64,000 nt of DNA from an uncultured Clostridia bacterium (GTDB lineage Bacteria > Bacillota_I > Bacilli_A > RF39 > UBA660): positions 95,086 to 159,085 of the forward strand of contig CAOJDX010000001.1 of NCBI GenBank assembly GCA_948433435.1. The letters are read 5' to 3'. The translations under genes were made by a program, and so were the position numbers. This document shows positions 1 to 13,659 of the stretch, piece by piece (within the stretch, counting starts at the first letter, position 1; each line of letters opens with the position of its first letter). Under the pieces are notes generated by a model, which saw nothing but the letters and a program-made list of their open reading frames with translations, ran no database searches and was not told the DNA's origin.

Positions 1-1657
1 GATTTGGTAAGTCCATTTGTATAATAGCTGGTATAGTAGTTGCATCTCCAACTATCAATGCTTCTCCAGCTGATAATGTGGGAAGTCCCTCAACTAATGA
101 ACTATTATTGTCCGGCAATAATCTCTTAACACAATTCTGATCGTTGAAATTTGTTAGTCTTAAAACCACAAAATTATTACATTGGGAAAAAATAGTTTCT
201 GAAACTTCAGATGGTCTTTGACTAACTACCATTAAACTTAATCCATATTTTCTTCCTTCCTTTGCAATCCTTTCAATAGACCTTTTTGCCGCATTGTACT
301 CACTCCCACCTACCTTAGGAATATAATTATGCGCTTCCTCACAAACAATCATAAATGGAATATCATTTAATTCATTATGAGCATGTTTATTTTTTGAATA
401 GTGAAAAGCAAAGTCAAATATTAAGCGTGACACTAAACTAACTGTAATACTTAATACTTCAAAAGGAATACCACTTAAATCGATAATTGATACATTGGAC
501 TTATCAATATAACCAATAAATTGTTTTAATATTTCTGGAAAATCTCCTGTTTTATATTCTGTACCATCTGATTTTTTTGGTGATGTAATAAAGTCTAATC
601 TTTTATCGCTTAGTTTTGTTTCTATTCTTGTAAGAAATCTTTCGAATTCCCCATTAAAAGGGCCATTACTTGCTTTAGTAGCACCAGCAGTAGAAGATGG
701 AATAAAATCAAATTTTTTATTCAAATATTCTTTAATATCTTCTATCAAATTCCCTTCTTTTGTCTTAGGTTTCCCATATTCGTTATCTAATTTACTTATT
801 ACCTCATTATTTAAATTATAAATAAAATTATATACCTCTCCAATCGAAAAATAAACTGGCATATCGTATGTTACTTTTTTATCTGGATTATGCTTTTCTT
901 TACTTAATATAACGGCACGTTTGAATTGTGAAATTTGATTATGAGAATTCATTTCGTTACTTTCTATAAAAAGGGACTCTAATTCTTCTGAATTCATTAA
1001 CCAATATGGAATACACATTTTTTCTACATCTAATATATTTAAATGAAAATTTTGCTCATCACCTAAAGAAAAAGCATTTTTATACTCAGAATGAATATCA
1101 AAGATTATTATATGAGAATTTTTTTGATTGTCCTTATTTTTATTGGTCGCATTACTTATACCACATACTTCCTGTATCATTTTAGCAACAGCACAAGATT
1201 TTCCGCTACCAGTTGATCCAACCACACCAATATGCTTACTAAAAAAAGCATTTCCATTAACATAGTAACTAACATCGTTATTATGTGACAATCTTCCCAT
1301 ATAATATGATGCAGTTTCTGTTGGTGAGAATATTTTATCAACTATATCAGAACTAGTAATATAAACTGGTTCTGTTGGTGAAGGAATATTTATACTTCCT
1401 TGTTTAAATATTACATTACTATCATCTTTAGTATAAGATCCAATAGGCTGAGTCTCAATATAATATTGTATATCATCTCCATCGATAGTCTTTATATTTA
1501 ATATAGTAGCTAAAATATAATTCAAATTTCCTTCTTGAATTGTAAGATATTTCCCTACTTTCAAACTTTCTTTATTATCCTCAAACGATTCTACATCATT
1601 TAATTTTATTTTTATTAATGCACCTGTGCTCTCCAACACTTTACCTATTTCTATCAT
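1..1657 (-). CDS. HerA-like ATPase (DUF87/FtsK-HerA superfamily), defense-associated. The gene runs off the window start, so the C-terminus is truncated.
   Basis: Minus-strand translation starts MIEIGKVLEST at 1657 with an AGGAGGA RBS overlapping the upstream stop. Walker A reads VVGSTGSGKS and Walker B reads FMIVCEEAHNYIP, after a HerA-like N-terminal barrel region. The reading frame is still open at position 1. Confidence 0.75.
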   Translation of the reverse strand, partial: MIEIGKVLESTGALIKIKLNDVESFEDNKESLKVGKYLTIQEGNLNYILATILNIKTIDGDDIQYYIETQPIGSYTKDDSNVIFKQGSINIPSPTEPVYITSSDIVDKIFSPTETASYYMGRLSHNNDVSYYVNGNAFFSKHIGVVGSTGSGKSCAVAKMIQEVCGISNATNKNKDNQKNSHIIIFDIHSEYKNAFSLGDEQNFHLNILDVEKMCIPYWLMNSEELESLFIESNEMNSHNQISQFKRAVILSKEKHNPDKKVTYDMPVYFSIGEVYNFIYNLNNEVISKLDNEYGKPKTKEGNLIEDIKEYLNKKFDFIPSSTAGATKASNGPFNGEFERFLTRIETKLSDKRLDFITSPKKSDGTEYKTGDFPEILKQFIGYIDKSNVSIIDLSGIPFEVLSITVSLVSRLIFDFAFHYSKNKHAHNELNDIPFMIVCEEAHNYIPKVGGSEYNAAKRSIERIAKEGRKYGLSLMVVSQRPSEVSETIFSQCNNFVVLRLTNFNDQNCVKRLLPDNNSSLVEGLPTLSAGEALIVGDATTIPAIIQMDLPN

Positions 1658-1659
1658 TA

Positions 1660-2934
1660 TTATCCTCCTAAATAAAATACATCCATTAAATCCTTTGAAC
1701 TTAATTTATTAACATTAATAGTATTAATTCCAGAATCATCATAATTTTCTATATCCACATCCCCAATAGTAATCAAGTCATCTGGTCTTCGTGGTACATT
1801 TGTTGTCAAATACGAATCAATATCATTATTCCTCATACAAATCTTTAGTTTATTTTCTGAACATCCAAACAATTTATCTATATAAAATTTTCTTCCTGCT
1901 TCACCGTTTTCAAATTCTATTTTATAGGCACTGAATAACAAACTCTGCAATTCTAAATAATTATCTTCATTATCTGTTTCTATAATGAACATAGGAAAAT
2001 AATTAAGTTTTTTCTTACTACAATACTTCTTTAAATACTCCTTAATAAAAAATGCAATTTCTGAAACACGATATCTAGATATATTTACAATTATAACTCT
2101 AAAACTATAATTGCTTTGCAATCTAACTCTTAAACTCTTTTTAATTTCTTCTTTGTATTTTTTTAAATCACATAACTTACTTAACCATTTTGTATAAAGT
2201 AATTCTTTAATTGAATATACCTCATTCTTGAATAAATTACAATCAATAGTTCTTTGTTGCTCATCATCATTAGCACTTAATTCTGCTACTTTTTGAAAAA
2301 AGTTCGGATAAATAATATTCTCTACTTCTTCTTCAGTATATCCATCATTACGAATTTTTTGTTTTATTGTTTCAACTAACAATTCCATTTTAGGTGCCGC
2401 TATCACTTGTGTTTTTTCAATAAAGCTATCTTTGCTAAATTTTAATAACGAATCGCCATTAACATTAATATAATTTGTTATTTCCACAATGTCATCATTT
2501 GTTAATTTGGATTTCTTACATAGTTTTTCGATTTCTTCGGGTAATTCAAATATTTGATGAAAATACTTTTTCACATATTCCTTGTTTTTTGTACTCAATA
2601 TGTCATTTAAAACATCAACTGTAAACTCAATATTATTTTCTTTGGTCACACCATTATAATGAATATATAACTTAAAATTAACATTTTCATATTTCATGTG
2701 TGAAATAATCATATCGAAAATGGGTTTAGCTAAAATACTTGGTGTTACATTTTGCGTCGATTCAAAATACTTACACTGAATAGCTGTTATATTATCTTCT
2801 CGAATAACATCTATATCTTCTATACAGCCTTCTAAAGTTATTTTTGTTCCTGGTGAAGCATTCAACACCTCTAAGATACTTTTATTATGCTGATAATTAA
2901 AACCTTCAATTGTCTGTGTAGCTGTTCTATCCAA
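1660..2934 (-). CDS. DUF4297-like protein, a PD-(D/E)xK nuclease-like partner of HerA
   Basis: A 424-aa ORF with a TTG start at 2934 preceded by an AGGAGGT RBS. The N-terminal motif ...EDIDVIRED...AIQCKY is consistent with a restriction-endonuclease-like fold. It is immediately upstream of, and translationally coupled to, the HerA-like ATPase, which is the known DUF4297-HerA arrangement. Confidence 0.6.
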   Translation of the reverse strand: MDRTATQTIEGFNYQHNKSILEVLNASPGTKITLEGCIEDIDVIREDNITAIQCKYFESTQNVTPSILAKPIFDMIISHMKYENVNFKLYIHYNGVTKENNIEFTVDVLNDILSTKNKEYVKKYFHQIFELPEEIEKLCKKSKLTNDDIVEITNYINVNGDSLLKFSKDSFIEKTQVIAAPKMELLVETIKQKIRNDGYTEEEVENIIYPNFFQKVAELSANDDEQQRTIDCNLFKNEVYSIKELLYTKWLSKLCDLKKYKEEIKKSLRVRLQSNYSFRVIIVNISRYRVSEIAFFIKEYLKKYCSKKKLNYFPMFIIETDNEDNYLELQSLLFSAYKIEFENGEAGRKFYIDKLFGCSENKLKICMRNNDIDSYLTTNVPRRPDDLITIGDVDIENYDDSGINTINVNKLSSKDLMDVFYLGG

Positions 2935-3065
2935 GTTAATACCTCCTATTAAGCAAAAAAATATCTTAATAATAAGATATTTTGATAACTTAATTATACT
3001 ACTTATTTAATCTTTTTCAAAATAAAAATACACTGTTAAAAAACTTATATTTTTCTATGAGGGTT

Positions 3066-3290
3066 AAATGTCGTAATCACCTCTTAAATTCCTATAATAA
3101 AATTCACTAAATTTACTATATTTTTATGATTTTTTAGTATTTTCACTGTTTTTTAGTAAAAATATGCAAGATCTAAAATCGCTCAATCCTTTTATTTATA
3201 AGGGTTTGCTAGAGGTGTTAAATAAATCGTAATCAACCAGTTTATGTTTGTCGTATTTTGTCGATTATTTTCCATCTTTATCACTTCCTT
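3066..3290 (-). repeat. Copy A of a ~225-bp diverged direct repeat, lying in the leader region upstream of the DUF4297-HerA operon
   Basis: It aligns with 5056..5280 through shared blocks aatgtcgtaatcacct, aaatatgcaagat, ttatttataa, aatcgtaatcaaccagtt, ttgtcgattatt and tcacttcctt. It contains two copies of a G(G/T)TGATTACGA motif. Confidence 0.7.
3192..3275 (-). CDS. Conserved short leader ORF inside repeat copy A (MENNRQNTTNINWLITIYLTPLANPYK)
   Basis: An AAGGAAGTGA RBS sits 6 nt upstream of the ATG. A paralogous peptide, MNNNNRQKTKINWLITI, is encoded at the same position in copy B. Confidence 0.25.
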   Translation of the reverse strand: MENNRQNTTNINWLITIYLTPLANPYK

Positions 3291-3824
3291 TTATTTTGTT
3301 TTACTATAATATTCAACTCCAGAATATGTTCCATCTTTATTTAATCTTCTATTTGCAATATAACCATCCTTATTGAACCCTGCTTTTTCCATTACTTTAG
3401 ATGATTGTTTATTTAATTCATTACAAGAACATTCTACCAAATAATAACCACTATCAAGTAAATAATCAGATACCACTTTTAATGCTTCGCTAGCATATCC
3501 ATTGCCCCAATAATCATATCTAACAACATATCCAACATTACAATAATTATGTTTTTTATTTACTGTATTTACTGAAATATTTCCAATTGTTATATTATTC
3601 TCTTTTAAAACAATTGACCATCTTTCATATTTAGATTCTTCTACTTCACTCATGCAATTTCTAATATATTCAAGTTCCTCATCTTTTGTTAAATTAGGAA
3701 ACGGGATATATGTATGCAATCTATCATCATGTAATATTTCATAAAAAGCATCAATATCACTTTCGTTATATCTTCTTAGAATTAACCTCTCTGTCTCTAT
3801 TTTAGGACTTAACATATTTCTCAC
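3291..3824 (-). CDS. GNAT family N-acetyltransferase (RimJ/RimL-like)
   Basis: 177 aa. It has the ETERLILRRY...DIDAFYEI N-terminal signature and a GNAT core (WGNGYASEAL). Confidence 0.8.
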   Translation of the reverse strand: MRNMLSPKIETERLILRRYNESDIDAFYEILHDDRLHTYIPFPNLTKDEELEYIRNCMSEVEESKYERWSIVLKENNITIGNISVNTVNKKHNYCNVGYVVRYDYWGNGYASEALKVVSDYLLDSGYYLVECSCNELNKQSSKVMEKAGFNKDGYIANRRLNKDGTYSGVEYYSKTK

Positions 3825-3834
3825 TACTCCTTTT

Positions 3835-4176
3835 TTATCTATATAAATTTTTCAATACATTAGTAAGACAATCTTCTGCAGTTTTATCTGTGTCAGAGAA
3901 TCTCATTCTAACTAATTTCCCCTTTACCTTAAATATATATGGATTTTTTACTTTAGTCAAAAAATCTAATATTCTTTCGTTACTTGATTTTCTTCTATCT
4001 ATTTTTATAAAACTTATTTCGTCTACATCATCTAGCGTTACATCTTCCAGTTCCATGCTTTTACATCTTTCTAATTTTTCTTTAATTTCTTCAATATTAT
4101 ATTTATCCATAAAATCACACTCCAAATTAATTATATATTCAAATGTAATTAATGTTAAATGTGTGAATTTACTCAT
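3835..4176 (-). CDS. hypothetical protein (the true start may be the internal MDKYNIEE)
   Basis: The ORF is 113 aa and has no recognisable motif. It overlaps the upstream Bro-N gene by 8 nt, and its stop lies 10 nt upstream of the GNAT gene. Confidence 0.4.
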   Translation of the reverse strand: MSKFTHLTLITFEYIINLECDFMDKYNIEEIKEKLERCKSMELEDVTLDDVDEISFIKIDRRKSSNERILDFLTKVKNPYIFKVKGKLVRMRFSDTDKTAEDCLTNVLKNLYR

Positions 4177-5029
4177 TAACTTTACTCTCTATTTTTTGTT
4201 GGTCATCAACATATTGATAATTCAATGCGTTGGTTTTAGAGATTGCAGATTTTTTTGTTTCCTTTTCATATAAATCTCTAGCACCTTTAGCAACTCCTCC
4301 ACCTCTTTTGGCAACTCTCAAATTTTCTTTTAAACCTTGTGGATGTTCCTCTTTTGCGATATCTCGTGTTGCAATCTCTCCTATATTTGTAAGTGCTACT
4401 TCTATATCTGTCATATTATCTCTTAAAGATTCTTTTCTAAGTCCTTTAAATTCTTTATATTCACTTGCTTTCATTCCAGACCAACCTTTATAAATTTCGT
4501 TTGTAAGCAAGGCATATTCCATTGGTTTGGTTATGCCTCTTTCTTTCCAAATATCTGTAAGTTTAAATCTATCTACAATTCCTGTTAATCTAGCCTTAAT
4601 CCATTCATCAGAATATCCTTTACTACGATAATAATTAACTGCACGATTTATAGCAATTTCAGGATCAAATACTTCATCAATTCTCTCACTACCAAGATTT
4701 GCTAGCCATAATTTAAAAGGTTCTGCCTTTGGACTTGGAACTGATTCGATAAGTCTTAGAATTCCTTTCGTATCAAGCACATCTTGATTATAAAATTTAC
4801 CATCTTTTGATTTTAATTTCAGTTGTCCGATTCTTTCGGACAACTCACTTCCCTCATTTTCTAATTTTTTCTTTAAATCGTTCCAATATTTACGTGGTCT
4901 ATCTGATTTAGTTAAAGCAACAATAACATCAACCACACTAAAAAAGTATTCTTCCTTATCACTATCCCATATACTTCTTATTTCCATATCTTCAAATATA
5001 TTTGATATCGTCTCTAACTTATTATTCAA
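4169..5029 (-). CDS. Bro-N domain protein (DinD / phage antirepressor-like)
   Basis: 286 aa with a TTG start. The N-terminal segment IRSIWDSDKEEYFFSVVDVIVALT...PRKYWNDLKKKL...KGILRLIESVPSPKAEPFKLWLA matches the Bro-N/DinD family. Confidence 0.7.
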   Translation of the reverse strand: MNNKLETISNIFEDMEIRSIWDSDKEEYFFSVVDVIVALTKSDRPRKYWNDLKKKLENEGSELSERIGQLKLKSKDGKFYNQDVLDTKGILRLIESVPSPKAEPFKLWLANLGSERIDEVFDPEIAINRAVNYYRSKGYSDEWIKARLTGIVDRFKLTDIWKERGITKPMEYALLTNEIYKGWSGMKASEYKEFKGLRKESLRDNMTDIEVALTNIGEIATRDIAKEEHPQGLKENLRVAKRGGGVAKGARDLYEKETKKSAISKTNALNYQYVDDQQKIESKVNE

Positions 5030-5055
5030 ATTAACACCTTCTTTCTTATGTTCTT

Positions 5056-5280
5056 AAATGTCGTAATCACCTTATTGATTCTTATTATAAATAACACTAA
5101 AATTACTATATTTTTAAGAATTTTTAGTGTTTTTAGCCCTTTTTTAATGAAAATATGCAAGATATAAATTAGAAAATTTCCCTTTATTTATAATAGTTTA
5201 AGAGTGTTCTTAATTAAATTGTAATCAACCAGTTGATTTTTGTTTTTTGTCGATTATTGTTATTCATTTTTTCACTTCCT
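5056..5280 (-). repeat. Copy B of the ~225-bp diverged direct repeat, in the leader upstream of the Bro-N gene
   Basis: It aligns to 3066..3290 with the same conserved blocks in the same order and orientation. Confidence 0.7.
5214..5267 (-). CDS. Short leader ORF inside repeat copy B (MNNNNRQKTKINWLITI)
   Basis: It has the same AAGGAAGTGA RBS as the copy-A peptide and shares its NNRQ...INWLITI core. Confidence 0.2.
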   Translation of the reverse strand: MNNNNRQKTKINWLITI

Positions 5281-5289
5281 TTATTTATT

Positions 5290-5460
5290 ATACAACTTTT
5301 TGATTGCATCACTTTTGAATAAGAACCATCTAGATATTTTCTTATCAAACAATTTATATTTTTCACTTACCTCATCTATATTTAAATATATCTTTCTATT
5401 ATTGTTATTTCTTAAATACCATTTCAACAAATAAGTACCTATTCCCTTTTTTATTAATTT
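5290..5460 (-). pseudogene. GNAT acetyltransferase C-terminal remnant (decayed)
   Basis: The minus-strand translation KKGIGTYLLKWYLRNNNNRKIYLNIDEVSEKYKLFDKKISRWF resembles a GNAT motif A/B region. It has no N-terminal half or start codon. It abuts repeat copy B exactly as the intact GNAT abuts copy A. Confidence 0.4.
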
Positions 5461-6094
5461 CTCCTTTATTTATAGAGCTTTAAGTATGATTGTCTTTATA
5501 TGCCTATACCTCAATTGATTGTCGTTTTTTGCCCATATCCTTTGATATTTATAATAAAGGTTTCAAGTTCTCTAACATTGTTCAAAGTTTTTTAATAATC
5601 TAAAATACTATCATATTCTGTTAATTTTACTGATAATTCCATTCACTTTTTTTACAGCAATATTAGGATATCTTGGGTGAATATAGTTTACTATAATATT
5701 TTTTAATAATTTTTCTTTCATATTTATTACATAATTTGGGTTAAATATATATTAGGGTATTTTTTTATAGATTTCAATTAAATTTTTATGATATATTTTG
5801 ACCATATTCCATAATCCAGTAAACAAGAATAAAACATATATATAAAGTATTCACATGACTTATATATTATATTAGCTGGATACTATACTAGCTATTTCTT
5901 TTTTTGACTTAAAATAATCATTTAATGTCTTAACAATTTTAACATATTGGTGATAATCTATAATTTCTTCTTCTATCGTTTTAATCAGCACTACTTTCTA
6001 TCATATATTTTTTAGTTTTTAGTTTTCTTTATTTTATTATTATTTTCTATTTTAGTTATTTCTGTAAAAGAAAATCTATATTATTCCTTTATCA

Positions 6095-6535
6095 TTAGAA
6101 TTTTTTTCTCAAAAAATTATCTATAGTCCCTGGAGGACAATCTTCAAAAGTGGCATACACTTCATATCCCATTTTTTCATAAAATTCTTTTGCCTGAAAA
6201 TCCCAAGTTTCCATCCTAATACCTATTAATTCTTTCTTTTTGGCCAATTTTTCCATCTCATTTATTAATCTTGTTCCAATATTTTTCCCTCTATACTCTT
6301 TATCAATATATAATAAGTCTAAAAAATACCAATTATATTTGATAAAACCTATTGCTCCACCAATTATCTGATTACTATCATAAACTATAAAATTATACTC
6401 TTGTTCAAAATATTCATCTTGATTTTGTGCTGATTTAGTATTTAACCATTTACAGTGCTTTCTATTAAAAGCAGATAATTTTTGGTCTATTATTTCTTTA
6501 ATTTTTTTGTCATTGTTATTTTTTATTATTATCAT
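6095..6535 (-). CDS. GNAT family N-acetyltransferase
   Basis: 146 aa. It has the motif YRGKNIGTRLINEMEKLAKKK...GYEVYATF. Confidence 0.8.
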   Translation of the reverse strand: MIIIKNNNDKKIKEIIDQKLSAFNRKHCKWLNTKSAQNQDEYFEQEYNFIVYDSNQIIGGAIGFIKYNWYFLDLLYIDKEYRGKNIGTRLINEMEKLAKKKELIGIRMETWDFQAKEFYEKMGYEVYATFEDCPPGTIDNFLRKKF

Positions 6536-6715
6536 CTAATCACATCCTAGTATTGTTTTAATCAAAATTGTAAACTCTTATTTCTATAAACCACTATATG
6601 AATTGGATTAGTTGCCAATTTATTCTAAATTGTATACTGATTGCCATATATTGTATCAGTTCATTAGAATGATTTTCTCTTTTTAATATGTTATTTCGGG
6701 TAATAATTAAAATTA

Positions 6716-7238
6716 TTAATATCTTTTACCAATTCTAGAAAAAGGTAAAATTGTATATTGAGCTCTACCTATTATATTTTTCTTTTGAATAAAACCTAGC
6801 ATTCTACTATCTACTGAATTTGTTCTGTTATCTCCTAGAACAAAGTAATGATCTTTTGGAACAGTTAAACTTCCTAAGTCTTTAATATTAAAGTCTGTCG
6901 TTTTCTTATGACTGAAATTTTCCTTTATTTTCTTTCCATTTAAATACAAAATATTATTTCGATATTCTATTTTATCTCCTGGAAGTCCAATAATTCTTTT
7001 AATAATATACTCATTTTTAGCAATAGTTTCTGATTTAGGTACATCTACTACTACAATATCAAATCTTTCTATTTCTTTAAAGTGATATATTATTTTATTC
7101 AAAATCATAATATCTTTATCATGTAGTGTACTATACATAGATGATCCATTTACCCTAATCGGAGAAATTATATAAGATTTTATTAAAATTACTATTATAA
7201 TTAATATAAGGTATTATTTCCTTTATAGTCTGTTTCAT
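6716..7238 (-). pseudogene. lepB: signal peptidase I (LepB, S26) with an apparent +1 frameshift near the 5' end
   Basis: The annotated 140-aa ORF begins at the Met of the catalytic SM motif and contains the VLGDNRTNSVDSR box. Upstream in another frame lies a TM helix plus IISPIRVNGSSM. A separate frame encodes MKQTIKEII starting at 7238, with the frames switching around 7208-7216. Confidence 0.55.
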
Positions 7239-7242
7239 TTTG

Positions 7243-7277
7243 GCACCAAAACAAAAAATAAGGGTTTGGCCCTTATT
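7243..7277 (-). terminator. hairpin and T-run between rplS and lepB (terminator or attenuator)
   Basis: The minus strand reads AAATAAGGG-CCAAA-CCCTTATTT followed by TTTGTTTT, and the hairpin overlaps the rplS stop codon. Confidence 0.45.
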
Positions 7278-7626
7278 TTTGTCCTCTTTCTTTAATTCTG
7301 TATTGACCAACTTTGTCTCTTAAGAATGTAAGTTTGGCACGTCTTACTTTACCTTTACGTACTACAGTAATACCAGCAATCTTTGGTGAATGAATTGGGA
7401 ATGTTCTTTCTACTCCAACTCCAGAAGACATTTTTCTAACTGTGAATGTTTCAGAAACACTTCCATTACGACGGGCTACTACGATACCTTCATATGCTTG
7501 GATACGTTCTTTTCCACCCTCCACAATTTTATAATCCACTTTTACTGTATCACCAACACGAAATTCTGGAATATTTGGATTAATTTGATTTTGATTAATT
7601 TTGTCAATTAAATTCATGAGATTCAT
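7273..7626 (-). CDS. rplS: 50S ribosomal protein L19
   Basis: 117 aa, with [29 protein letters not shown] matching the L19 consensus. Confidence 0.9.
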
Positions 7627-7759
7627 CCTTTCTAATATAAAATTTTAAAGAGATCTTAAATAAACTTTAGCGGATCACTTCTTTTGACGTTTTTAATTAT
7701 AACATAAGGTAACATCATTGTAAATTGTTTTTATCTTTTTTCTAATTTTTCTTTTGCAG

Positions 7760-8203
7760 TTATCTAGTACGATTTACACTTTTTTCATTTCTGATATAAA
7801 ACAATTCTGTTTGTTTTTTTTGAGCCTCTTTTTGAAGAAACTTAAGTTCTATAGCCATTTTTTCTAATTCTTTCTTTTTTAGATATTTCCGATAGTCCTT
7901 TTTTATCATATCCTTAAATTTTTGAATTTCAGTTAAAACCTCATTCATTGTTGTTCCTGGATCTTCTTCACTTATAAAAAGATCTGTTAATTTTTTTATT
8001 AGCTTTTGATATTTTTTTAATACTATTTTTGAAACAAATGGTGAAGCAAATTTTTTATTTATGATGATAATCTTAGTAATATTATTTCCATCTATTATAA
8101 ATTTATTTGATTTAGTTGGTAAAAGGAAACCTTCTATTGTTGAATAATTTAATATTTTGGTTTCTTTCTTTTCTTTTTTTACTATATATTTCATCTTTGT
8201 CAT
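7760..8203 (-). CDS. hypothetical lysine-rich protein
   Basis: 147 aa. It overlaps the trmD stop by 4 nt and lies between trmD and rplS. Confidence 0.4.
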   Translation of the reverse strand: MTKMKYIVKKEKKETKILNYSTIEGFLLPTKSNKFIIDGNNITKIIIINKKFASPFVSKIVLKKYQKLIKKLTDLFISEEDPGTTMNEVLTEIQKFKDMIKKDYRKYLKKKELEKMAIELKFLQKEAQKKQTELFYIRNEKSVNRTR

Positions 8204-8889
8204 CTACTTTCTTTTTGAACAATATTTTCTTCTAAAAGATCTGGTCTTCTTTCTTTGGTCTTTCTGATACTTTCTTTTAACCGATATTCTTCTATTTTCT
8301 TATGATCTCCACTTATTAGTACTTCAGGAACTTCCATATTATTATATATTCTTGGTTTAGTATAAGTTGGATAATCTAAAAGATTGTTATTAAATGACTC
8401 TTTTAAATGTGATTCTTCTTCAATAACTCCTTTCAATAGTCTTGTAATAGAATCCACTACAATCATGGCGGCATATTCTCCTCCTGTTAAAATATAATCA
8501 CCTATTGAAAGTTCTAAGTCAGCGAGTGAGCGAATTCTCTCATCAAATCCTTCATAATGGCCACAAATTAAAATTAAATGCTTTTTTTGAGAGAGATCAT
8601 AGGCCATTTGCTGTTTATAAGTTTTTCCATCAGGAGTTAATAAAATTACCATACTGTTTTCTGTTTTTAAGCTATTTACACAATCAAATATTGGTTGGCA
8701 GGTAAGAACCATTCCTTCTCCGCCACCATAAGGAGTATCATCTACTTTATGATGCTTATCTTTAGAAAAGACTCTAAAGTCGTGAATATTTATTTCTACT
8801 ATTGATTTTTCTTGAGCTCTTTTTATAATTGATTCTGTGAAAACAGACTGAAACATATCAGGAAAAAGAGTTAAAATATCTATTTTCAT
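8200..8889 (-). CDS. trmD: tRNA (guanine37-N1)-methyltransferase
   Basis: It begins MKIDILTLFPDMF and contains YGGGEGMVL. Confidence 0.9.
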   Translation of the reverse strand: MKIDILTLFPDMFQSVFTESIIKRAQEKSIVEINIHDFRVFSKDKHHKVDDTPYGGGEGMVLTCQPIFDCVNSLKTENSMVILLTPDGKTYKQQMAYDLSQKKHLILICGHYEGFDERIRSLADLELSIGDYILTGGEYAAMIVVDSITRLLKGVIEEESHLKESFNNNLLDYPTYTKPRIYNNMEVPEVLISGDHKKIEEYRLKESIRKTKERRPDLLEENIVQKESR

Positions 8890-8944
8890 GATTATCCTCT
8901 TTTCTTTTTTAGTTTAAAAATGTTATAGAAAAATATGTTAATTC

Positions 8945-9433
8945 TTAGTTGATCATTCCTTCTATTATTTGAACATAAATTTTATGTTTTATTTTGTCTA
9001 TTTTTTCAATATAGGGACTATTTAAAGGAATTAATACTTCTTGATTTTTAATATTTAATCGTAGAATTTTATTAGTAGCACTAGCGAAAAAAATTTCTTT
9101 TATTATACCCTCCCCTATATTAGTAATAACGTTGTAAGTAATCAATTCTTCATCTAAAATTTCATTTTCGTCTAAATTTAAACTTTCTTTATCTATATAA
9201 ACTTTTTTCTTTAATAAAAATTGAACTTCGTTAATGTCTTTATAATGATCAAGAGTTATCATCTCATAAATCTTGTGATGTCGGTAAGAGTTTATCTTGT
9301 ATTCCTTTTCGTCAATTAATAAGGTATTATCTTTTCTAAAAACTTTATTTTTAAAAGGAAAATCCGAAATTATTTTTAGTTCTCCTTTAATTCCATGGGT
9401 TGACACAATTTTACCAATATAAATTTTTTTCAT
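8945..9433 (-). CDS. rimM: 16S rRNA processing protein RimM
   Basis: Its N-terminus reads IGKIVSTHGIKGELKI, and it sits upstream of trmD. Confidence 0.8.
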   Translation of the reverse strand: MKKIYIGKIVSTHGIKGELKIISDFPFKNKVFRKDNTLLIDEKEYKINSYRHHKIYEMITLDHYKDINEVQFLLKKKVYIDKESLNLDENEILDEELITYNVITNIGEGIIKEIFFASATNKILRLNIKNQEVLIPLNSPYIEKIDKIKHKIYVQIIEGMIN

Positions 9434-9436
9434 CTA

Positions 9437-10183
9437 CTATCTTCCTAACTCATATAAAAGAATCGATGTTGCAATTGCAACGTTTAGGCTTTCGACGTTG
9501 GCATTTAAGTTAATATATAAATTTTTGTCACACATATTACTAATGGAATTTCTCACTCCATTTCCTTCATTTCCAACTACCAAAGCATATCTTATTTTAT
9601 CCTTTTCTGCTAAGCTTCTGACATCACTTCCATGACCTACCAAAGTACCATAAACCGGAATTTCTTCTTGGTGAAGCTGTTCTATAGTGCTTTCTAAATC
9701 TTTTTTTATAATATTAATATGAAAAAACATTCCTTGAGTTGCTCGTATCGTTTTTGGATTATATAAATCTACAGTATTTTCTGATAGAACGATTGTATCA
9801 ATATTAAAAGCAACTGCACTGCGAATAATTGTTCCTAAATTCCCAGGATCCTGAATATTATCTATCAAAAGAATCTTATTCTTTAATTCTTCTTTTTCTT
9901 CCTGTTTATGACACAAAGCCATAATTGTTTGCGGTGTTTCTACAGTCGATATTTTAGTAATAATTTCCATTGGAAGATAGACAATATTTTTAATATCCAA
10001 TGGGAATACTTCCTCTTTTTCTAAAATTAATTCATCGATTAGTCCATTTTTGTAAGCTTCTAATACTAAGTGAGCTCCTTCTACAATGAATTGTCCTGTT
10101 TTATCACGATATTTCTTATCTTTTAATTTTATATATTTTCTCACTTTATCATTTTCTAAACTTGTTATTAGCATAATACTCAT
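9437..10183 (-). CDS. TrmH/SpoU family RNA 2'-O-methyltransferase
   Basis: It has the SpoU MTase core (IDNIQDPGNLGTIIRSA, ALVVGNEGNG). Confidence 0.75.
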   Translation of the reverse strand: MSIMLITSLENDKVRKYIKLKDKKYRDKTGQFIVEGAHLVLEAYKNGLIDELILEKEEVFPLDIKNIVYLPMEIITKISTVETPQTIMALCHKQEEKEELKNKILLIDNIQDPGNLGTIIRSAVAFNIDTIVLSENTVDLYNPKTIRATQGMFFHINIIKKDLESTIEQLHQEEIPVYGTLVGHGSDVRSLAEKDKIRYALVVGNEGNGVRNSISNMCDKNLYINLNANVESLNVAIATSILLYELGR

Positions 10184-10245
10184 CCCTCACAAACAGATTA
10201 TATCATATTTTCATCATTTATGATATAGTTTATATGAGGTGTTGT

Positions 10246-10401
10246 ATGGAAAAAAGAAAACTAGAAGTATCCTATGATCATAGTAACGAAAGAGATAAAG
10301 GAAAAATGAATACTTATACTTTTATCATTCCTGGTAGTAATTTTAAAGATATTCATATTTCAGTTAAAAATGATAAAAAGAAAAAAGAGAAGAAAAAATA
10401 A
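10246..10401 (+). CDS. possible small lysine-rich protein (51 aa)
   Basis: The ATG is preceded by a GAGGTG RBS in an otherwise empty intergenic region. Confidence 0.2.
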   Translation: MEKRKLEVSYDHSNERDKGKMNTYTFIIPGSNFKDIHISVKNDKKKKEKKK

Positions 10402-10403
10402 AT

Positions 10404-11057
10404 TTAAAATTCTTTCATCTCTTTTTTTATTTGTTTATAATCGGGACAGTTTTCGGCTACTAAAGACCAAAAGCTTGTTGAGTGATTAGCATGTATTAAA
10501 TGAGATAGTTCATGAATAATTACATAATCTAAGTATTTTTCTTCTCTTTTCATTAATTCCAAATTCAATGTGATAACTTTAGTTTTTGTATTACATACTC
10601 CCCATCTAGTGGTCATTTTTCTAATTCTAAGAGCTGGATAGGGAATTTTTTTGGAAAATTGATGATACATTTTGTCTAAATGTTCCTGAAAAATATTTTT
10701 TGCTTGTTTTTTATACCATTTATCTAGATCGAACTCTTTATTCAAAAATACTTTTCCATTTCCAAAGGAAATATCACAATATTCAGTATACACAATATCA
10801 TAATTCTTTCCTAAATAATAAAAATGGTTATTATTCTCTATTTTTCTTTTTTCTTTTTCAAGCATTTTAATAATAGAGGAGTAATTTTTTTCTAATAAAT
10901 TTTTAATATATTTTTCTGTTGTCAAAATATTTGTTGTAATATAAATTTTTAAATCTGGCTTGATTCTAATGTAAGTATTTTTATTACCTCTTTTTTTTTC
11001 TATCACGATCTCATATTCTTCATTGTCTACTTTAAGTTTCATCTTACCACCAAACAT
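10404..11057 (-). CDS. YgjP-like metal-dependent hydrolase (DUF45 / M48-like)
   Basis: It has WGVCNTKTKVITLNLELM and an HELSHLIHANH zinc motif. Confidence 0.7.
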   Translation of the reverse strand: MFGGKMKLKVDNEEYEIVIEKKRGNKNTYIRIKPDLKIYITTNILTTEKYIKNLLEKNYSSIIKMLEKEKRKIENNNHFYYLGKNYDIVYTEYCDISFGNGKVFLNKEFDLDKWYKKQAKNIFQEHLDKMYHQFSKKIPYPALRIRKMTTRWGVCNTKTKVITLNLELMKREEKYLDYVIIHELSHLIHANHSTSFWSLVAENCPDYKQIKKEMKEF

Positions 11058-11256
11058 ATTATATAAAATTCAAAGAAAAAAGGAAAGCCTAAATATTGAA
11101 ATGTAACTCTTATACTTTTAAGTTCATTTTATACTTTGATTCTAATCTAATTATGACTAATAAAGGCATAAAGAATAATATATGATGTATTCTTTTTGCT
11201 AAGAAAATATAGAATGAAGTTCTACAAAATAAGGCTTAAGTATTCTTAAAGAATCA

Positions 11257-13659
11257 TTATTTATCTCTTAAAACTGCATGACATTTTTGGGTTACATCAT
11301 TAATAATCTTATTAAACTGCACCATAACTTCTTCATCAGTTAAAGTACGACTAGGATCATTAAAAGTTAAATTAAAGGCAAGGGACTTTTCGTCTTCCAA
11401 AATATTTTCTCCAATATAAACATCAAATACTTTTATATTGGTTAATAATCTACCTCCACTTTTTCTAATTTGATCAATTAAAATTTGGGCTGGAACATCT
11501 TTCTTAATAATGAAAGCGACATCTTTTTCTATTTCTGGATACTTAGGAGCTGCTTTGTATTTAAGAGGTTTAGTTTCTTTCATTAAAGCATTCATAGAAA
11601 ATTCTGCTATATAAACATTATCCTTTAAATTTTTAGGATGAATGCGACCAATGACTCCAATTTCTTTTCTATCAAGCAATATTTTTGCTGACATACCAGG
11701 ATGCATATCAGGAAGATCTCCTTTTTCGAAGGTATATCGATTTCTAAACCCTAAATAATCTAAGATATTTTCAACAATCCCTTTTACTACATAAAAATCT
11801 ACCTTCAGATTATTATTCTGCCATGAGCTTCCATAATAATTTCCAGCCATTAAAATAGTGATTTTACTTTCTTCTATATAACTAGAATCGTAATATGTCT
11901 TACTAATTTCATATAGGAATATATCTTTTACTTTTCTAGCTTTATTATATTCATAAACTTTTATTAAACTGGGAATCAAACTAGTCCTGATAACTGATTT
12001 ATCAATACTCATAGGATTCGGTAAAACAATATTCTTTTTTTGCTCATAATTGAATGTTTTAGCCATATCTGGACTGGTTAATGTGTAAGTTTTTGTTTCG
12101 TTTAAACCTAGGCTTCTTAATCTTTTAGAAATTATTTTTCGATATTTTACGTCTCCTACATATTGTCCTTGTCTAATTGGTACAGTAGGAAGAGTGGAAA
12201 CTAAATTATGATAGCCATATAGTCTTCCTATTTCTTCAGCTATATCATTAACATTAGGATCAATATCTAACCTTCTATTGGGAATTGTAACAATAAATTT
12301 ATTATTTTCTATATGATAGGGAAAATCCAATCTTTGTAGTTCGATTTTCATATCATCCTCACTAATGGTAATACCAAGCATTTTGTTAATATCTTCTGGA
12401 ATAAATTCGACTATTTTAGGCTGTTTATCTAGTGTATCATAAGCAATAGTCCCAGAAAGCACTTTGGCATTGGCATACTTTTGCAATAAATGACAGGCTC
12501 TGTTAATAGCTTTTTCAGTGTATTCGTAATTTAGTCCTTTTCCATATCTAACAGAAGCTTCACTTCGAAGGTCTAAATTAGTAGCAGTATAGCGTATACT
12601 AACTGGATCAAATATAGCGCTTTCAATTAAAATATTTTTAGTATTTTCATCTACTTCTGTGTTTTCTCCACCCATGACTCCTGCAATACAAACTGGCTTT
12701 TTGGAATCAGTAATGACAATATCATTAGGTGTCAGAATACGTTCCTTTCCATCAAGGGTCGTTATTTTTTCCTTTTCGTTGGCATCTCTTACTAAAATAT
12801 GGTTTCCTAATTTATCTTTATCAAAGAAGTGAAGTGGTTGACCATATTCAAGCATTACATAATTTGAAATATCAACTACATTATTAATTGAGCGCATACC
12901 TGCTTCTGTTAATCTTTTTTTAATAAATTCAGGAGAAGGTCCTATTTCGATATTTGTAACCATTTTGGCTAAATAATAAGGACATTTAGATGTTTCTACC
13001 TTTAGAGTAAAATGATTAGTAATATGATCTTCTACTTCACTATAATCAGCAATTGGTAAAGTTACTTTACGATTTAATATTGCTGCTATTTCATAAGCAA
13101 AACCAATGTGGTAATAACAATCATTATTACGGTGTTTATGAATGTCTAATTCATATAATGTTCCTGCAAATCCTAAATATTCTAGAGGGTCTTTCCCTAC
13201 TGGAGCTTGATTATTCAATTCATGAATACCCTTATTATAGTTCTCTTCAGTTTTTTCTTCTAAGCCGAGCTCAAATAAAGCACAGATCATGCCATTAGAT
13301 TCTACTCCTCGAATTTTACTTTTTTTAATTTCAAAATCACCAGGAAGAATTGCTCCTACAAGAGCAACAATAACTTTAATGCCACTTCTCACATTAGGTG
13401 CTCCACACACAATTTGTTTCACTGTGTCATTGCCTATATTTACCTGACAAATATGTAAATGATCACTATCAGGGTGGTCAGTACATTCTATAACTTCTCC
13501 AATTACCAAATGGTCTATGTGGTTGGTAATTACTTTTTCTATATTGATCCCTGCTTTAGTAATTTTTATAGCTAATTCAGCTAAGTCTTGATCACTAATA
13601 TCAATATATTCTTTTACCCATTCTAAACTAATCATTTTATTCAGCTTCCTTTCTGTCAA
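11257..13659 (-). CDS. pheT: phenylalanine--tRNA ligase beta subunit
   Basis: 800 aa, and its start overlaps the pheS stop. Confidence 0.9.
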   Translation of the reverse strand: MTERKLNKMISLEWVKEYIDISDQDLAELAIKITKAGINIEKVITNHIDHLVIGEVIECTDHPDSDHLHICQVNIGNDTVKQIVCGAPNVRSGIKVIVALVGAILPGDFEIKKSKIRGVESNGMICALFELGLEEKTEENYNKGIHELNNQAPVGKDPLEYLGFAGTLYELDIHKHRNNDCYYHIGFAYEIAAILNRKVTLPIADYSEVEDHITNHFTLKVETSKCPYYLAKMVTNIEIGPSPEFIKKRLTEAGMRSINNVVDISNYVMLEYGQPLHFFDKDKLGNHILVRDANEKEKITTLDGKERILTPNDIVITDSKKPVCIAGVMGGENTEVDENTKNILIESAIFDPVSIRYTATNLDLRSEASVRYGKGLNYEYTEKAINRACHLLQKYANAKVLSGTIAYDTLDKQPKIVEFIPEDINKMLGITISEDDMKIELQRLDFPYHIENNKFIVTIPNRRLDIDPNVNDIAEEIGRLYGYHNLVSTLPTVPIRQGQYVGDVKYRKIISKRLRSLGLNETKTYTLTSPDMAKTFNYEQKKNIVLPNPMSIDKSVIRTSLIPSLIKVYEYNKARKVKDIFLYEISKTYYDSSYIEESKITILMAGNYYGSSWQNNNLKVDFYVVKGIVENILDYLGFRNRYTFEKGDLPDMHPGMSAKILLDRKEIGVIGRIHPKNLKDNVYIAEFSMNALMKETKPLKYKAAPKYPEIEKDVAFIIKKDVPAQILIDQIRKSGGRLLTNIKVFDVYIGENILEDEKSLAFNLTFNDPSRTLTDEEVMVQFNKIINDVTQKCHAVLRDK

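What the first reader, a model, noticed from the sequence alone, without database searches (positions are those of the whole stretch)
1..2934. DUF4297 nuclease-like protein plus HerA-like ATPase two-gene defense module at the window edge
A 424-aa protein with a PD-(D/E)xK-like N-terminal motif (EDIDVIRED...AIQCK) is translationally coupled to a HerA/FtsK-type ATPase. The ATPase has an N-terminal barrel domain, a Walker A GSTGSGKS, and a Walker B IVCEEAH. This gene order and domain pairing match the DUF4297-HerA anti-phage system. It sits in an accessory island inserted beside the core lepB-rplS-trmD block. The HerA gene is truncated by the window start, so additional partner genes could lie just beyond position 1.
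Basis: partly seen in the sequence, partly recalled or inferred. Interest (0 to 1): 0.6.

Follow-up and report, generated by a model that had tools for sequence, protein, structure and literature searches.

The report
Known DUF4297–HerA anti-phage gene pair
This is an intact but ordinary copy of the already characterised DUF4297–HerA nuclease/ATPase anti-phage system; the less ordinary part is that it rides on a 6.3-kb serine-recombinase element inserted into the start of the essential ribosome-assembly gene rbgA/ylqF.

Summary
Window 1660–2934 (−) encodes a 424-aa DUF4297 protein. Two bases downstream, HerA starts at 1657 (−) and runs off the window after 552 of 587 codons.

Both proteins match the defence-specific DUF4297–HerA models: PADLOC 3e-32 and 1.7e-155, NCBIfam 3e-37 and 6e-181. 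Both match solved HerA–DUF4297 complexes (9C1M, 8ZIQ, 8XAV). HerA is 62% identical to the Bacillus protein; the nuclease only 29%.

The residues mutated in published work are present: nuclease D40, Q53-x-K55 and E58; HerA K153, E440 and E441. An AlphaFold model (pLDDT 87) hits DUF4297 chains first, then LmuA, HamA and Cap4.

Identical metagenome contigs extend the locus. HerA ends 105 nt past the window edge, and no conserved third partner exists. The downstream genes (DUF4365, a 132-aa ORF, a CcrB-like serine recombinase) differ in relatives.

Verdict: new member of a known kind, low interest.

The by-product is more interesting. The pair is cargo of a 6,320-bp element inserted at the I-N-W codons of rbgA/ylqF. 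It is one cassette in tandem arrays found in 20 of 50 related metagenome loci.

The parts
1660..2934 (-). DUF4297 gene (424 aa, TTG start): N-terminal Cap4-like PD-(D/E)xK nuclease domain, helical linker and C-terminal oligomerisation domain
   Evidence: ORF. PADLOC DUF4297 3e-32. NCBIfam DUF4297_antiphage 3e-37. PDB 8ZIQ_A, 9C1M_A and 8XAV_G. AlphaFold model pLDDT 86.8. Foldseek top hits are DUF4297 chains.
2767..2832 (-). Nuclease active-site segment E35-G36 … E39-D40 … Q53-C54-K55-Y56; E58 follows just after it at 2761–2763
   Evidence: These residues are invariant in 27 homologues. D40 and E58 correspond to D41 and E59, which were mutated in the Bacillus protein. The model places strands β2 at 41–44 and β3 at 49–56.
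1..1657 (-). HerA ATPase gene, codons 1–552 of 587; the last 35 codons and the stop lie beyond window position 1
   Evidence: Translation. PADLOC HerA 1.7e-155, or 3.7e-165 for the full-length protein. 9C1M_M 3e-226, 62% identity. The full gene is present on identical contigs.
1196..1219 (-). HerA Walker A, G147-STGSGK153-S154
   Evidence: K153 aligns with K149 of Bacillus HerA, which was mutated in bioRxiv 2024.10.24.620088.
329..349 (-). HerA Walker B, I437-VCE440-E441-AH443
   Evidence: E440 and E441 align with E438 and E439 of Bacillus HerA.
1664..1669 (-). AGGAGG ribosome-binding site for HerA, inside the 3' end of the DUF4297 gene; the stop and the ATG are 2 nt apart
   Evidence: Read directly from the sequence. 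The same tight junction is seen in four related operons.
2993..3020 (-). Promoter-like site, TTGAAA-16-TATAAT (11 of 12 matches), 59 nt upstream of the TTG start
   Evidence: consensus match only. A TATAAT box occupies the same position in related operons.
2955..2983 (-). Leader palindrome AAAATATCTTA-TTAT-TAAGATATTTT followed by a T-run, lying between the −10 box and the RBS (2942–2947)
   Evidence: An equivalent palindrome plus T-run, with changes that keep the two arms complementary, is present in L021, L102, L104 and L105. Its function was not tested.
3064..3236 (-). Conserved ~175-nt non-coding left end of the integrative element that carries the operon. It begins TTGATTACGATTTA and ends AGGTGATTACGACATTTAA.
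   Evidence: Direct repeat with window 5054–5228. Thirty-two copies were aligned. The proximal and distal decamers co-vary between elements.
3237..3290 (-). Displaced remnant of an rbgA/ylqF 5' end (RBS, ATG at 3275–3273, codons MENNRQNTTNINW) ending at the recombination junction AAC-TG|G-TTGAT. This is the attL-type left boundary of the 6,320-bp element.
   Evidence: Four-way alignment. The live ylqF start MSENQDKVFGKTSINW|YPGHMAK is read.

Best explanation
Window 1–2934 (−) encodes a two-gene DUF4297–HerA (HerA-DUF) anti-phage operon. The host is an uncultured mouse-gut Bacilli bacterium.

By homology with the three solved systems, the mechanism is as follows. A HerA hexamer (HAS barrel, RecA-like ATPase, helix bundle and C-terminal hook) docks two stacked rings of six DUF4297 protomers through HAS-domain/CTD contacts. 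Assembly flattens the HerA ring, which places the arginine finger and switches on ATP hydrolysis. Assembly also drives the Cap4-like nuclease domains of the upper DUF4297 ring into clamp-shaped dimers. These dimers cut double-stranded DNA with Mg2+ and without sequence specificity. On infection, phage and host DNA are both degraded and the cell aborts the infection.

Shown here: the gene pair, its conserved architecture, homology to the characterised proteins, and conservation of the catalytic and ATPase residues. Also shown: the operon has its own promoter-like site and a weak hairpin plus T-run right after HerA, and it is cargo of a 6.3-kb serine-recombinase element.

Inferred from the literature: complex stoichiometry, nuclease activation by assembly, abortive infection, and inhibition of the nuclease by ATP. 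The infection trigger remains unknown.
For: **Defence-specific profiles.** PADLOC DUF4297 gives 3e-32. PADLOC HerA of the same system gives 1.7e-155, or 3.7e-165 for the full-length protein. NCBIfam DUF4297_antiphage gives 3e-37 and HerA_antiphage_2 gives 6e-181.

**Solved complexes.** HerA matches 9C1M_M at 3e-226 (62% identity), 8ZIQ_M at 8e-187 and 8XAU_A at 5e-119. DUF4297 matches 8ZIQ_A at 9e-37, 9C1M_A at 1e-34 (29% identity) and 8XAV_G at 2e-17.

**Structure.** The AlphaFold model (pLDDT 86.8) has the αβββαβ nuclease core. Foldseek ranks DUF4297 chains first (1e-30), then LmuA, HamA and Cap4.

**Residues.** E39, D40, Q53, C54 and K55 are invariant in 27 homologues. HerA K153, E440 and E441 equal the residues mutated in the Bacillus system.

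**Conserved architecture.** Five independent relatives keep DUF4297 followed by HerA with a 1–2 nt gap or a 4-nt overlap, although their neighbours differ.

**Intactness.** The exact protein is on 23 contigs from many samples.

**Published mechanism.** PMC11291478, bioRxiv 2024.10.24.620088 and PMC12198126.
Against: There is no experiment on this copy, and the host is uncultured.

Scores lie below NCBIfam's curated equivalog cut-offs: 128 against 300 bits for DUF4297, and 603 against 850 bits for HerA. This is therefore a divergent member.

Pfam PF14130 (DUF4297/Cap4_nuclease) gives no hit at E ≤ 1. The same is true of the experimentally characterised Bacillus protein, so this reflects the model's limited sensitivity.

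Bacillus K61, one of three residues called catalytic in the preprint, is T60 here and is variable in the family.

Published work disagrees on the role of ATP. It is needed in vivo, yet it inhibits the nuclease in vitro. The trigger is unknown.
Confidence: 0.9

Rival explanations
1. The pair chiefly serves its mobile element rather than the host. A promiscuous nuclease/ATPase module could stabilise the 6.3-kb rbgA-inserted element, or exclude competing elements and plasmids. Anti-phage activity would then be secondary.
For: The operon is cargo of a serine-recombinase element. Relatives sit next to tyrosine integrases, a Mob relaxase, T4SS pilins or another serine recombinase. The published nuclease cuts any dsDNA, including plasmid DNA.
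Against: Characterised homologues protect against phage in plaque assays. Carriage on mobile elements is usual for defence systems. Nothing here points to a toxin/antitoxin-like regulation.
Confidence: 0.08
2. A housekeeping HerA-type DNA end-resection or repair helicase with a nuclease partner, analogous to archaeal HerA–NurA.
For: HerA shares the RecA-like core with repair HerA: NCBIfam helicase_HerA 2e-38, PDB 4D2I 2e-22.
Against: Matches to defence HerA are more than 100 orders of magnitude better. The partner is DUF4297, not NurA. No Mre11 or Rad50 genes are nearby. The pair sits on a variable mobile element and occupies different loci in relatives.
Confidence: 0.01
3. The ATPase is a conjugative or DNA-translocation ATPase (VirB4/TraC/FtsK/TrwB type) belonging to the mobile element.
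For: Weak sub-threshold hits only: FtsK_SpoIIIE 6.8e-5, TrwB_AAD_bind 1.7e-3 and plasmid TraB 3e-5. They are limited to the P-loop.
Against: All of these fall below the curated cut-offs. Full-length alignment to defence HerA runs from the HAS barrel to the C-terminal hook. The 6.3-kb element carries no other transfer genes.
Confidence: 0.005
4. A decaying or inactive copy, retained only because the element is young.
For: The start codon is TTG, and scores fall below the equivalog cut-offs.
Against: Both ORFs are full length and all catalytic residues are conserved. Non-ATG starts are shared by all five operons of the clade: TTG in four and GTG in one. This looks like a regulated feature rather than decay. 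The sequence is identical across many samples.
Confidence: 0.03

Closest known systems
HerA–DUF4297 (HerA-DUF) of Bacillus sp. HMH5848, PDB 9C1M/9C1N/9C1X/9C5X (Rish et al., bioRxiv 2024.10.24.620088)
   Same: The gene pair and domain architecture are the same. HerA is 62% identical over 553 aligned columns, with the same Walker A, Walker B and EGRKYG segment. DUF4297 aligns end to end (residues 1–408) and shares the long helical linker that the ~400-aa relatives lack. D41 and E59 of the Bacillus protein equal D40 and E58 here.
   Different: The nuclease partner is only 29% identical. Bacillus K61 is T60 here. The host is an uncultured low-GC gut Bacilli bacterium. The operon is carried on a serine-recombinase element inserted in rbgA.
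E. coli DUF4297–HerA, PDB 8XAU–8XAY and 8ZGI (An et al., Cell Res 2024, PMC11291478)
   Same: The same system type: a 6:12 supramolecular nuclease/ATPase complex, a dsDNA nuclease and abortive infection. HerA matches at 5e-119 and the DUF4297 N-terminal domain at 2e-17.
   Different: It is much more distant. The C-terminal domain of DUF4297 is barely alignable by sequence (E = 9.5 for that stretch). Foldseek still aligns the crystal structure 8ZGI over the whole length (3e-12).
SIR2–HerA (Nezha) and other HerA-linked defence systems
   Same: A HerA hexamer acts as the assembly platform that activates a toxic effector.
   Different: The effector here is a Cap4-like nuclease, not SIR2. The HerA model of the SIR2 system scores far lower: PDLC02185 2.5e-49 against 1.7e-155, and PDB 8J4U 3e-24.
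Cap4 (CBASS), LmuA (Lamassu) and HamA (Hachiman) nuclease domains
   Same: The same PD-(D/E)xK 'Cap4 nuclease' fold. Foldseek gives 2e-7 for LmuA 9HR5 and 3e-4 for AbCap4 6VM6.
   Different: There is no SAVED/CARF sensor and no SMC or helicase partner. Activation is by HerA-driven oligomer remodelling.
SCCmec/Ccr cassette chromosome elements, and Tn5253-type ICEs that integrate in rbgA (comparison for the genomic context only)
   Same: The recombinase's best NCBIfam hit is CcrB (1e-26). As with SCC, elements with and without a recombinase pile up in tandem next to a conserved ribosome-related gene. The 5' end of rbgA is a documented attB for streptococcal ICEs (PMC8571831, PMC4701971).
   Different: The target is the 5' end of rbgA rather than the 3' end of rlmH. 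The streptococcal rbgA integrations use tyrosine integrases. The cassettes here are 0.4–6.3 kb, and each starts with a conserved ~185-nt module.

Membership tests
DUF4297–HerA (HerA-DUF) anti-phage system | Two adjacent, co-oriented genes in the order DUF4297 then HerA | tested here: met
   1660–2934 (−) is followed by 1657–1 (−) with a 2-nt gap. The same order and tight junction occur in five related loci.
DUF4297–HerA (HerA-DUF) anti-phage system | The effector is homologous to the DUF4297 proteins of the characterised systems | tested here: met
   PADLOC PDLC02187 3e-32 (residues 1–375). PDB 8ZIQ_A 9e-37, 9C1M_A 1e-34 and 8XAV_G 2e-17. Foldseek 9C1M_G 1e-30.
DUF4297–HerA (HerA-DUF) anti-phage system | N-terminal Cap4-like PD-(D/E)xK nuclease domain with an intact active site | tested here: met
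   The model shows the αβββαβ core. E39, D40, Q53 and K55 are invariant, and E58 is present. D40 and E58 equal the mutated D41 and E59. Bacillus K61 is not conserved (T60 here).
DUF4297–HerA (HerA-DUF) anti-phage system | C-terminal oligomerisation (CTD/'UFO') domain of DUF4297 | tested here: met
   Sequence alignment extends to residue 409–414 of 424. CTD-only chains 9C5X_A/G and 8ZIR_B align at target-normalised TM 0.71–0.75.
DUF4297–HerA (HerA-DUF) anti-phage system | HerA with HAS barrel, RecA-like core with Walker A/B and trans-acting R/K, helix-bundle insertion and C-terminal hook | tested here: met
   Full-length match to PDLC02188 (13–583 of 587) and to 9C1M_M (3–552). K153, E440, E441 and the EGRKYG segment are conserved. 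The 35 C-terminal residues come from identical contig L001.
DUF4297–HerA (HerA-DUF) anti-phage system | NCBIfam equivalog trusted cut-offs (NF042945, NF042944) | tested here: not met
   128 bits against a cut-off of 300, and 603 bits against 850. These are the best-scoring families by far, but this copy is a divergent member outside the strict equivalog.
DUF4297–HerA (HerA-DUF) anti-phage system | Pfam PF14130 (DUF4297 / Cap4_nuclease) domain hit | tested here: not met
   No hit at E ≤ 1. As a control, the characterised Bacillus DUF4297 (9C1M_A) also gives no hit, and other relatives are sub-threshold (1.4e-4 and 2e-3). This does not discriminate members of the HerA-associated clade.
DUF4297–HerA (HerA-DUF) anti-phage system | 6 HerA : 12 DUF4297 supramolecular complex, assembly-activated dsDNA nuclease and ATPase | not testable with these tools
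   Needs co-expression, mass photometry or cryo-EM, and nuclease and ATPase assays.
DUF4297–HerA (HerA-DUF) anti-phage system | Protection against phage (abortive infection) | not testable with these tools
   Needs phage challenge of a heterologous host.
   FtsK_SpoIIIE 22.8 bits (cut-off 24). TrwB 17.8 bits (cut-off 20.5). TraB 22.7 bits (cut-off 800).
Large serine recombinase integrative element (genomic context) | Resolvase, Recombinase and Zn-ribbon domains; element bounded by hybrid att sites with only a short common core | tested here: met
   Pfam finds all three domains. The junctions are ..AAC-TG-GTTGATTAC.. on the left and ..AAT-TG-GTATCC.. in ylqF. Recombination activity was not tested.

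The most novel reading that the evidence does not exclude
The DUF4297–HerA operon may be one cassette of an undescribed cassette-accretion system in gut Bacilli, similar to SCC elements or integrons.

In this reading, a CcrB-related large serine recombinase inserts small co-oriented elements (0.4–6.3 kb) at the TG of the Trp codon in the first conserved codons (I-N-W) of the essential GTPase gene rbgA/ylqF. Each insertion brings a new promoter, RBS and N-terminal codons for rbgA and leaves the previous ones behind as a remnant.

Every cassette begins with a conserved ~185-nt non-coding module. Its two directly repeated half-sites co-vary between elements, which would fit recombinase specificity classes. 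Cargo is mixed: defence candidates, GNATs, a β-lactamase, transporters and regulators.
Probability: 0.45. Interest if true: 0.6.

Novelty: new member of a known kind. Interest (0 to 1): 0.3.

Why it matters
For the finding as given, very little. DUF4297–HerA is in PADLOC and NCBIfam and has three sets of cryo-EM structures. This copy only extends the family to an uncultured low-GC mouse-gut Bacilli lineage.

Two points could interest specialists. First, the nuclease diverges about twice as fast as its HerA partner: 48–55% against 78–79% identity in the nearest relatives, and 29% against 62% to the Bacillus system. That pattern fits arms-race pressure on the effector or sensor surface. Second, the clade shares a leader palindrome plus T-run and a non-ATG start, which suggests tight control over how much of a toxic nuclease is made.

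The genomic context matters more. Tandem serine-recombinase cassettes that rewrite the 5' end of an essential gene would be a new route by which Firmicutes assemble accessory and defence islands, if confirmed. They would also supply a set of natural attB/attP pairs.

Tried and rejected
**Pfam on the 424-aa protein.** There was no PF14130 hit, only Mrr_cat_2 at E = 0.018. I rejected this as evidence against membership after the control.

**Rfam.** A permissive scan of window 1–8000 gave only a chance miRNA hit.

**Empty integration site in the same species.** I looked it up through the exact GNAT protein. All 23 contigs that extend far enough carry the island.

**IMG/VR.** A search for the cassette left-end motif found no matches.

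**Intrinsic terminators.** The scan after HerA and around the recombinase called none. The hairpin AAAAATGGAT-TTTTAAT-ATCCATTTTT plus T-run after HerA is readable, but it has only 2 G-C pairs.

**DUF4365 and the 132-aa ORF as third and fourth components.** I rejected this because they are absent downstream of HerA in L102, L104 and L105. They are also separated from HerA by 220 nt.

**The 260-nt repeat as a simple promoter duplication.** I rejected this after the four-way alignment and the metagenome junctions.

**A circular excised form in MAG contig L020.** I rejected this because the sequence after the junction is a different, third element. It is 82% identical to the window copy and is followed by a DUF6870 homologue and a metallophosphoesterase-like ORF.
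Full report
**What is in the sequence.**
On the minus strand, a 424-aa ORF runs from a TTG at 2934 to a TAA ending at 1660. Two bases later an ATG at 1657 opens a frame that stays open to window position 1, giving 552 codons. An AGGAGG at 1664–1669, inside the end of the first gene, serves the second. E39-D40-I-D42 and Q53-C-K55 are in the first protein. GSTGSGKS (147–154) and IVCEEAH (437–443) are in the second. The only refinement is that the genes are 2 nt apart rather than overlapping.

**Identity of the two proteins.**
- PADLOC's DUF4297 model matches residues 1–375 at 3e-32. PADLOC's HerA model of the same system matches at 1.7e-155, or 3.7e-165 once the full-length protein is used.
- NCBIfam gives DUF4297_antiphage at 3e-37 and HerA_antiphage_2 at 6e-181. 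Both are below the strict equivalog cut-offs: 128 against 300 bits and 603 against 850 bits.
- Against PDB sequences, HerA hits the HerA chains of all three solved HerA–DUF4297 systems: 9C1M_M 3e-226, 8ZIQ_M 8e-187 and 8XAU_A 5e-119. The 424-aa protein hits their DUF4297 chains: 8ZIQ_A 9e-37, 9C1M_A 1e-34 and 8XAV_G 2e-17.
- Identity to the Bacillus sp. HMH5848 pair is 62% for HerA and 29% for DUF4297.
- Transfer-ATPase families (FtsK, TrwB, TraB) reach only sub-threshold P-loop matches.

**The missing Pfam hit.**
Pfam PF14130 (DUF4297, now named Cap4_nuclease) does not hit the protein at E ≤ 1. As a control I scanned the experimentally characterised Bacillus DUF4297. It has no PF14130 hit either, and other family members score only 1.4e-4 and 2e-3, below the gathering score. 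The gap is a sensitivity limit of that model for the HerA-associated clade.

**Structure and residues.**
- I aligned 27 homologues. The set comprises about 28 sequences of 423–430 aa at 44–55% identity, then ~400-aa proteins at 24–29%. An exhaustive search found 444 representative clusters at E ≤ 1e-3.
- E35, G36, E39, D40, Q53, C54, K55 and Y56 are invariant.
- An AlphaFold2 model built on this alignment has mean pLDDT 86.8. It starts with α(5–25), β(31–34), β(41–44), β(49–56), α(65–81), β(85–92), which is the PD-(D/E)xK core. D40 sits at the start of β2 and Q53-x-K55 in β3.
- Foldseek against the PDB ranks DUF4297 chains first (9C1M_G 1e-30, 8ZIQ_A 6e-22, 8ZGI_A 3e-12). LmuA, HamA and AbCap4 follow.
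- The residues mutated by Rish et al. map as follows: DUF D41, E59 and K61 to D40, E58 and T60 here; HerA K149 and E438/E439 to K153 and E440/E441. Bacillus K61 is not conserved in the family, whereas Q-x-K is invariant.

**Beyond the window edge.**
The exact 424-aa protein is encoded on 23 public contigs. One of them, L001 (44.7 kb, Logan SRR27304137), is the reverse complement of window 1–12,929 at 99.95% identity.
- HerA is 587 aa and ends 105 nt beyond position 1. It is followed by a weak hairpin plus T-run that the terminator scan does not call.
- After a 220-nt gap come four further genes: a 320-aa DUF4365 protein (Pfam 9e-34; its N-terminus resembles Argonaute-associated REase domains, PADLOC 6e-16), a 132-aa ORF with no match, a 411-aa large serine recombinase (Resolvase, Recombinase and Zn-ribbon domains; best NCBIfam hit CcrB, 1e-26), and then the core genes ylqF/rbgA, rnhB and topA.
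- In relatives, the DUF4297–HerA pair is kept with the same tight junction but has different neighbours. These are recG (L021), tyrosine integrases and a Mob relaxase (L102), an MBOAT gene (L104), and T4SS pilins with a 511-aa serine recombinase (L105).

The system is therefore a self-contained two-gene module.

**Organism.**
A scan of GTDB species representatives found the identical HerA on a contig of 'uncultured Bacilli bacterium MGBC102946' (the prefix is that of the Mouse Gastrointestinal Bacteria Catalogue). A 79%-identical HerA lies in a second such MAG. GC content here is 24–32%.

**Mechanism.**
The mechanism rests on the literature for the homologues.
- HerA alone is a split-spiral hexamer with low activity. 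DUF4297 alone is a dimer or an open-ring dodecamer with low activity.
- Together they form a roughly 1-MDa complex of 6 HerA and 12 DUF4297. HAS-domain/CTD contacts flatten HerA and position the arginine finger.
- The same contacts drive the upper-ring nuclease domains into clamp-shaped dimers that degrade dsDNA non-specifically.
- Mutations in either the ATPase or the nuclease abolish defence, and infected cells lose their DNA (abortive infection). ATP at 0.5 mM inhibits the nuclease in vitro.

For the window copy only homology and residue conservation are shown. Everything else is inference.

**Features of this clade that I did not find described.**
- *Unequal divergence.* In four independent relatives DUF4297 is 48–55% identical to the window protein, while the adjacent HerA is 78–79% identical. 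The nuclease domain (53–62%) is the best-conserved part of DUF4297.
- *A shared leader.* All five operons have a TATAAT box, then a palindrome with the half-site (A/C/G)TATC(T/A)T and a T-run, then GGAGG and a non-ATG start (TTG four times, GTG once). The arm changes keep the arms complementary. That fits either an RNA hairpin at the 5' end of the mRNA or a DNA operator. The two cannot be separated here.

**Genomic context.**
A ~260-nt direct repeat (76% identity) lies upstream of the DUF4297 gene (window 3064–3323) and upstream of the Bro-N gene (window 5054–5315).
- *What the repeat contains.* Each copy starts with an RBS and a short ORF (MENNRQNTTNINW… and MNNNNRQKTKINW…) that mimics the start of ylqF (MSENQDKVFGKTSINW|YPGHMAK).
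- *The junction.* In a four-way alignment, MAG contig L020 is identical to L001 through ylqF codon W16. It then switches to the same conserved sequence that follows the two remnants (TTGATTACGATTTA…), whereas L001 continues into ylqF. The junction reads ATCAAC-TG-GTTGAT, a 6-bp inverted repeat around the TG of the Trp codon. NCBIfam's YlqF model begins exactly at I14, so only the non-conserved N-terminal extension is exchanged.
- *The elements.* The DUF4297–HerA operon lies on a 6,320-bp element (L001 9,699–16,018), with the recombinase gene last. The element's right end supplies the promoter-like TGATATAAT, the RBS and the first 16 codons of ylqF. A second element of 1,992 bp has no recombinase and lies just upstream (window 5228–3237). 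It carries Bro-N (PADLOC candidate PDC-S13, 1.6e-112), DUF6870 and a GNAT.
- *Related metagenome loci.* A YlqF search gave 80 loci at 47–71% identity. Some keep rplS–lepB–ylqF with only 0.45–0.8 kb between lepB and ylqF and no junction (L067, L073, L081). YlqF N-termini before the invariant INWYPGHM are hypervariable.
- *Extent of the arrays.* Twenty of the 50 loci with more than 1 kb of upstream sequence carry one to four full junction modules, always co-oriented with ylqF. They delimit 36 cassettes of 0.44–4.7 kb.
- *Cargo.* Cargo ORFs are almost all co-oriented and of mixed function: RhuM/PDC-S05, GNATs, AAA_21, KilA-N, YhcG nuclease, a β-lactamase, an ABC transporter, FUR, HxlR and rubrerythrin. 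Serine-recombinase homologues sit upstream of ylqF in five loci.
- *Co-varying half-sites.* Within the ~185-nt module, the decamer right after the junction and a second decamer ~175 nt downstream co-vary between elements. Mean identity is 7.6 of 10 within an element and 5.8 between elements, and no permutation out of 10,000 reached the observed value. The sequences are related, so this is not a true probability.
- *Prior knowledge.* The 5' end of rbgA is a known attB for streptococcal ICEs of the Tn5253/Tn5252 type, but those use tyrosine integrases. A limited literature search found no description of serine-recombinase cassette arrays at this site.

**Verdict.**
The finding is a correctly identified, intact and divergent member of the known DUF4297–HerA defence system. 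It is a new member of a known kind and of low intrinsic interest. The context is the part worth a follow-up: an SCC-like tandem cassette array at the first conserved codons of rbgA. It rests on sequence comparison only.

Noticed in passing
window 3064–3290 and 5054–5290 (− strand); L001 7,640–7,885, 9,634–9,878 and 15,927–16,018; L020 6,120–6,329: Tandem site-specific insertions at the I-N-W codons of rbgA/ylqF. Each junction keeps a remnant rbgA 5' end, followed by a conserved ~185-nt module with two co-varying half-sites. Twenty of 50 related metagenome loci carry 1–4 such cassettes (0.44–4.7 kb) with mixed cargo. The recombinase is CcrB-like.
   Followed up: partly
window 4169–5029 (−), 3835–4176 (−), 3291–3824 (−): A 1,992-bp cassette without a recombinase carries three genes. 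The Bro-N protein matches the PADLOC candidate single-gene defence system PDC-S13 at 1.6e-112. The other two are a DUF6870 protein and a RimJ/RimL-like GNAT.
   Followed up: partly
L001 13,262–14,627 (157–1,522 nt beyond window position 1): A DUF4365 protein (320 aa) and a 132-aa ORF with no match in Pfam, PADLOC or NCBIfam lie between HerA and the recombinase. The N-terminal PD-(D/E)xK-type domain of the DUF4365 protein resembles Argonaute-associated REase and PDC-M02A models. This may be a second defence module on the same element.
   Followed up: partly
window 7209/7210, inside lepB (6716–7310, −): The window has a 5-bp deletion relative to contigs L001–L003, which are otherwise 99.95% identical. 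It splits signal peptidase I into 51-aa and 140-aa ORFs. This is either a real frameshift or an assembly error. A single mismatch lies at window 5174.
   Followed up: partly
window 2955–2983 (−); L021 7,162–7,190; L102 ~1,760–1,786; L104 ~525–550; L105 ~7,952–7,975: A leader palindrome plus T-run lies between the −10 box and the RBS in all five DUF4297–HerA operons of this clade. The arm changes keep the arms complementary. All five operons use a non-ATG start (TTG four times, GTG once). It could be a 5' mRNA hairpin, an attenuator or an operator.
   Followed up: partly
window 1–2934 compared with L021, L102, L104, L105 and PDB 9C1M: The nuclease partner diverges far faster than HerA: 48–55% against 78–79% identity in close relatives, and 29% against 62% to the Bacillus system.
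   Followed up: partly
L020 1–74 and 6,120–7,588 (GTDB MAG MGBC102946 contig CAJTLA010000060.1): The species-representative MAG differs from the window lineage in two places. The sequence just upstream of the leader palindrome is unrelated to the window's promoter region. A further cassette (a DUF6870 homologue and a 271-aa metallophosphoesterase-like ORF) follows the recombinase instead of ylqF. This is either strain variation or a MAG mis-join.
   Followed up: no
L022–L101, ylqF starts: YlqF/RbgA N-termini before the invariant INWYPGHMAK range from MS to about 19 residues and are unrelated in sequence. This is consistent with repeated replacement of the gene's 5' end by inserted elements.
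   Followed up: partly
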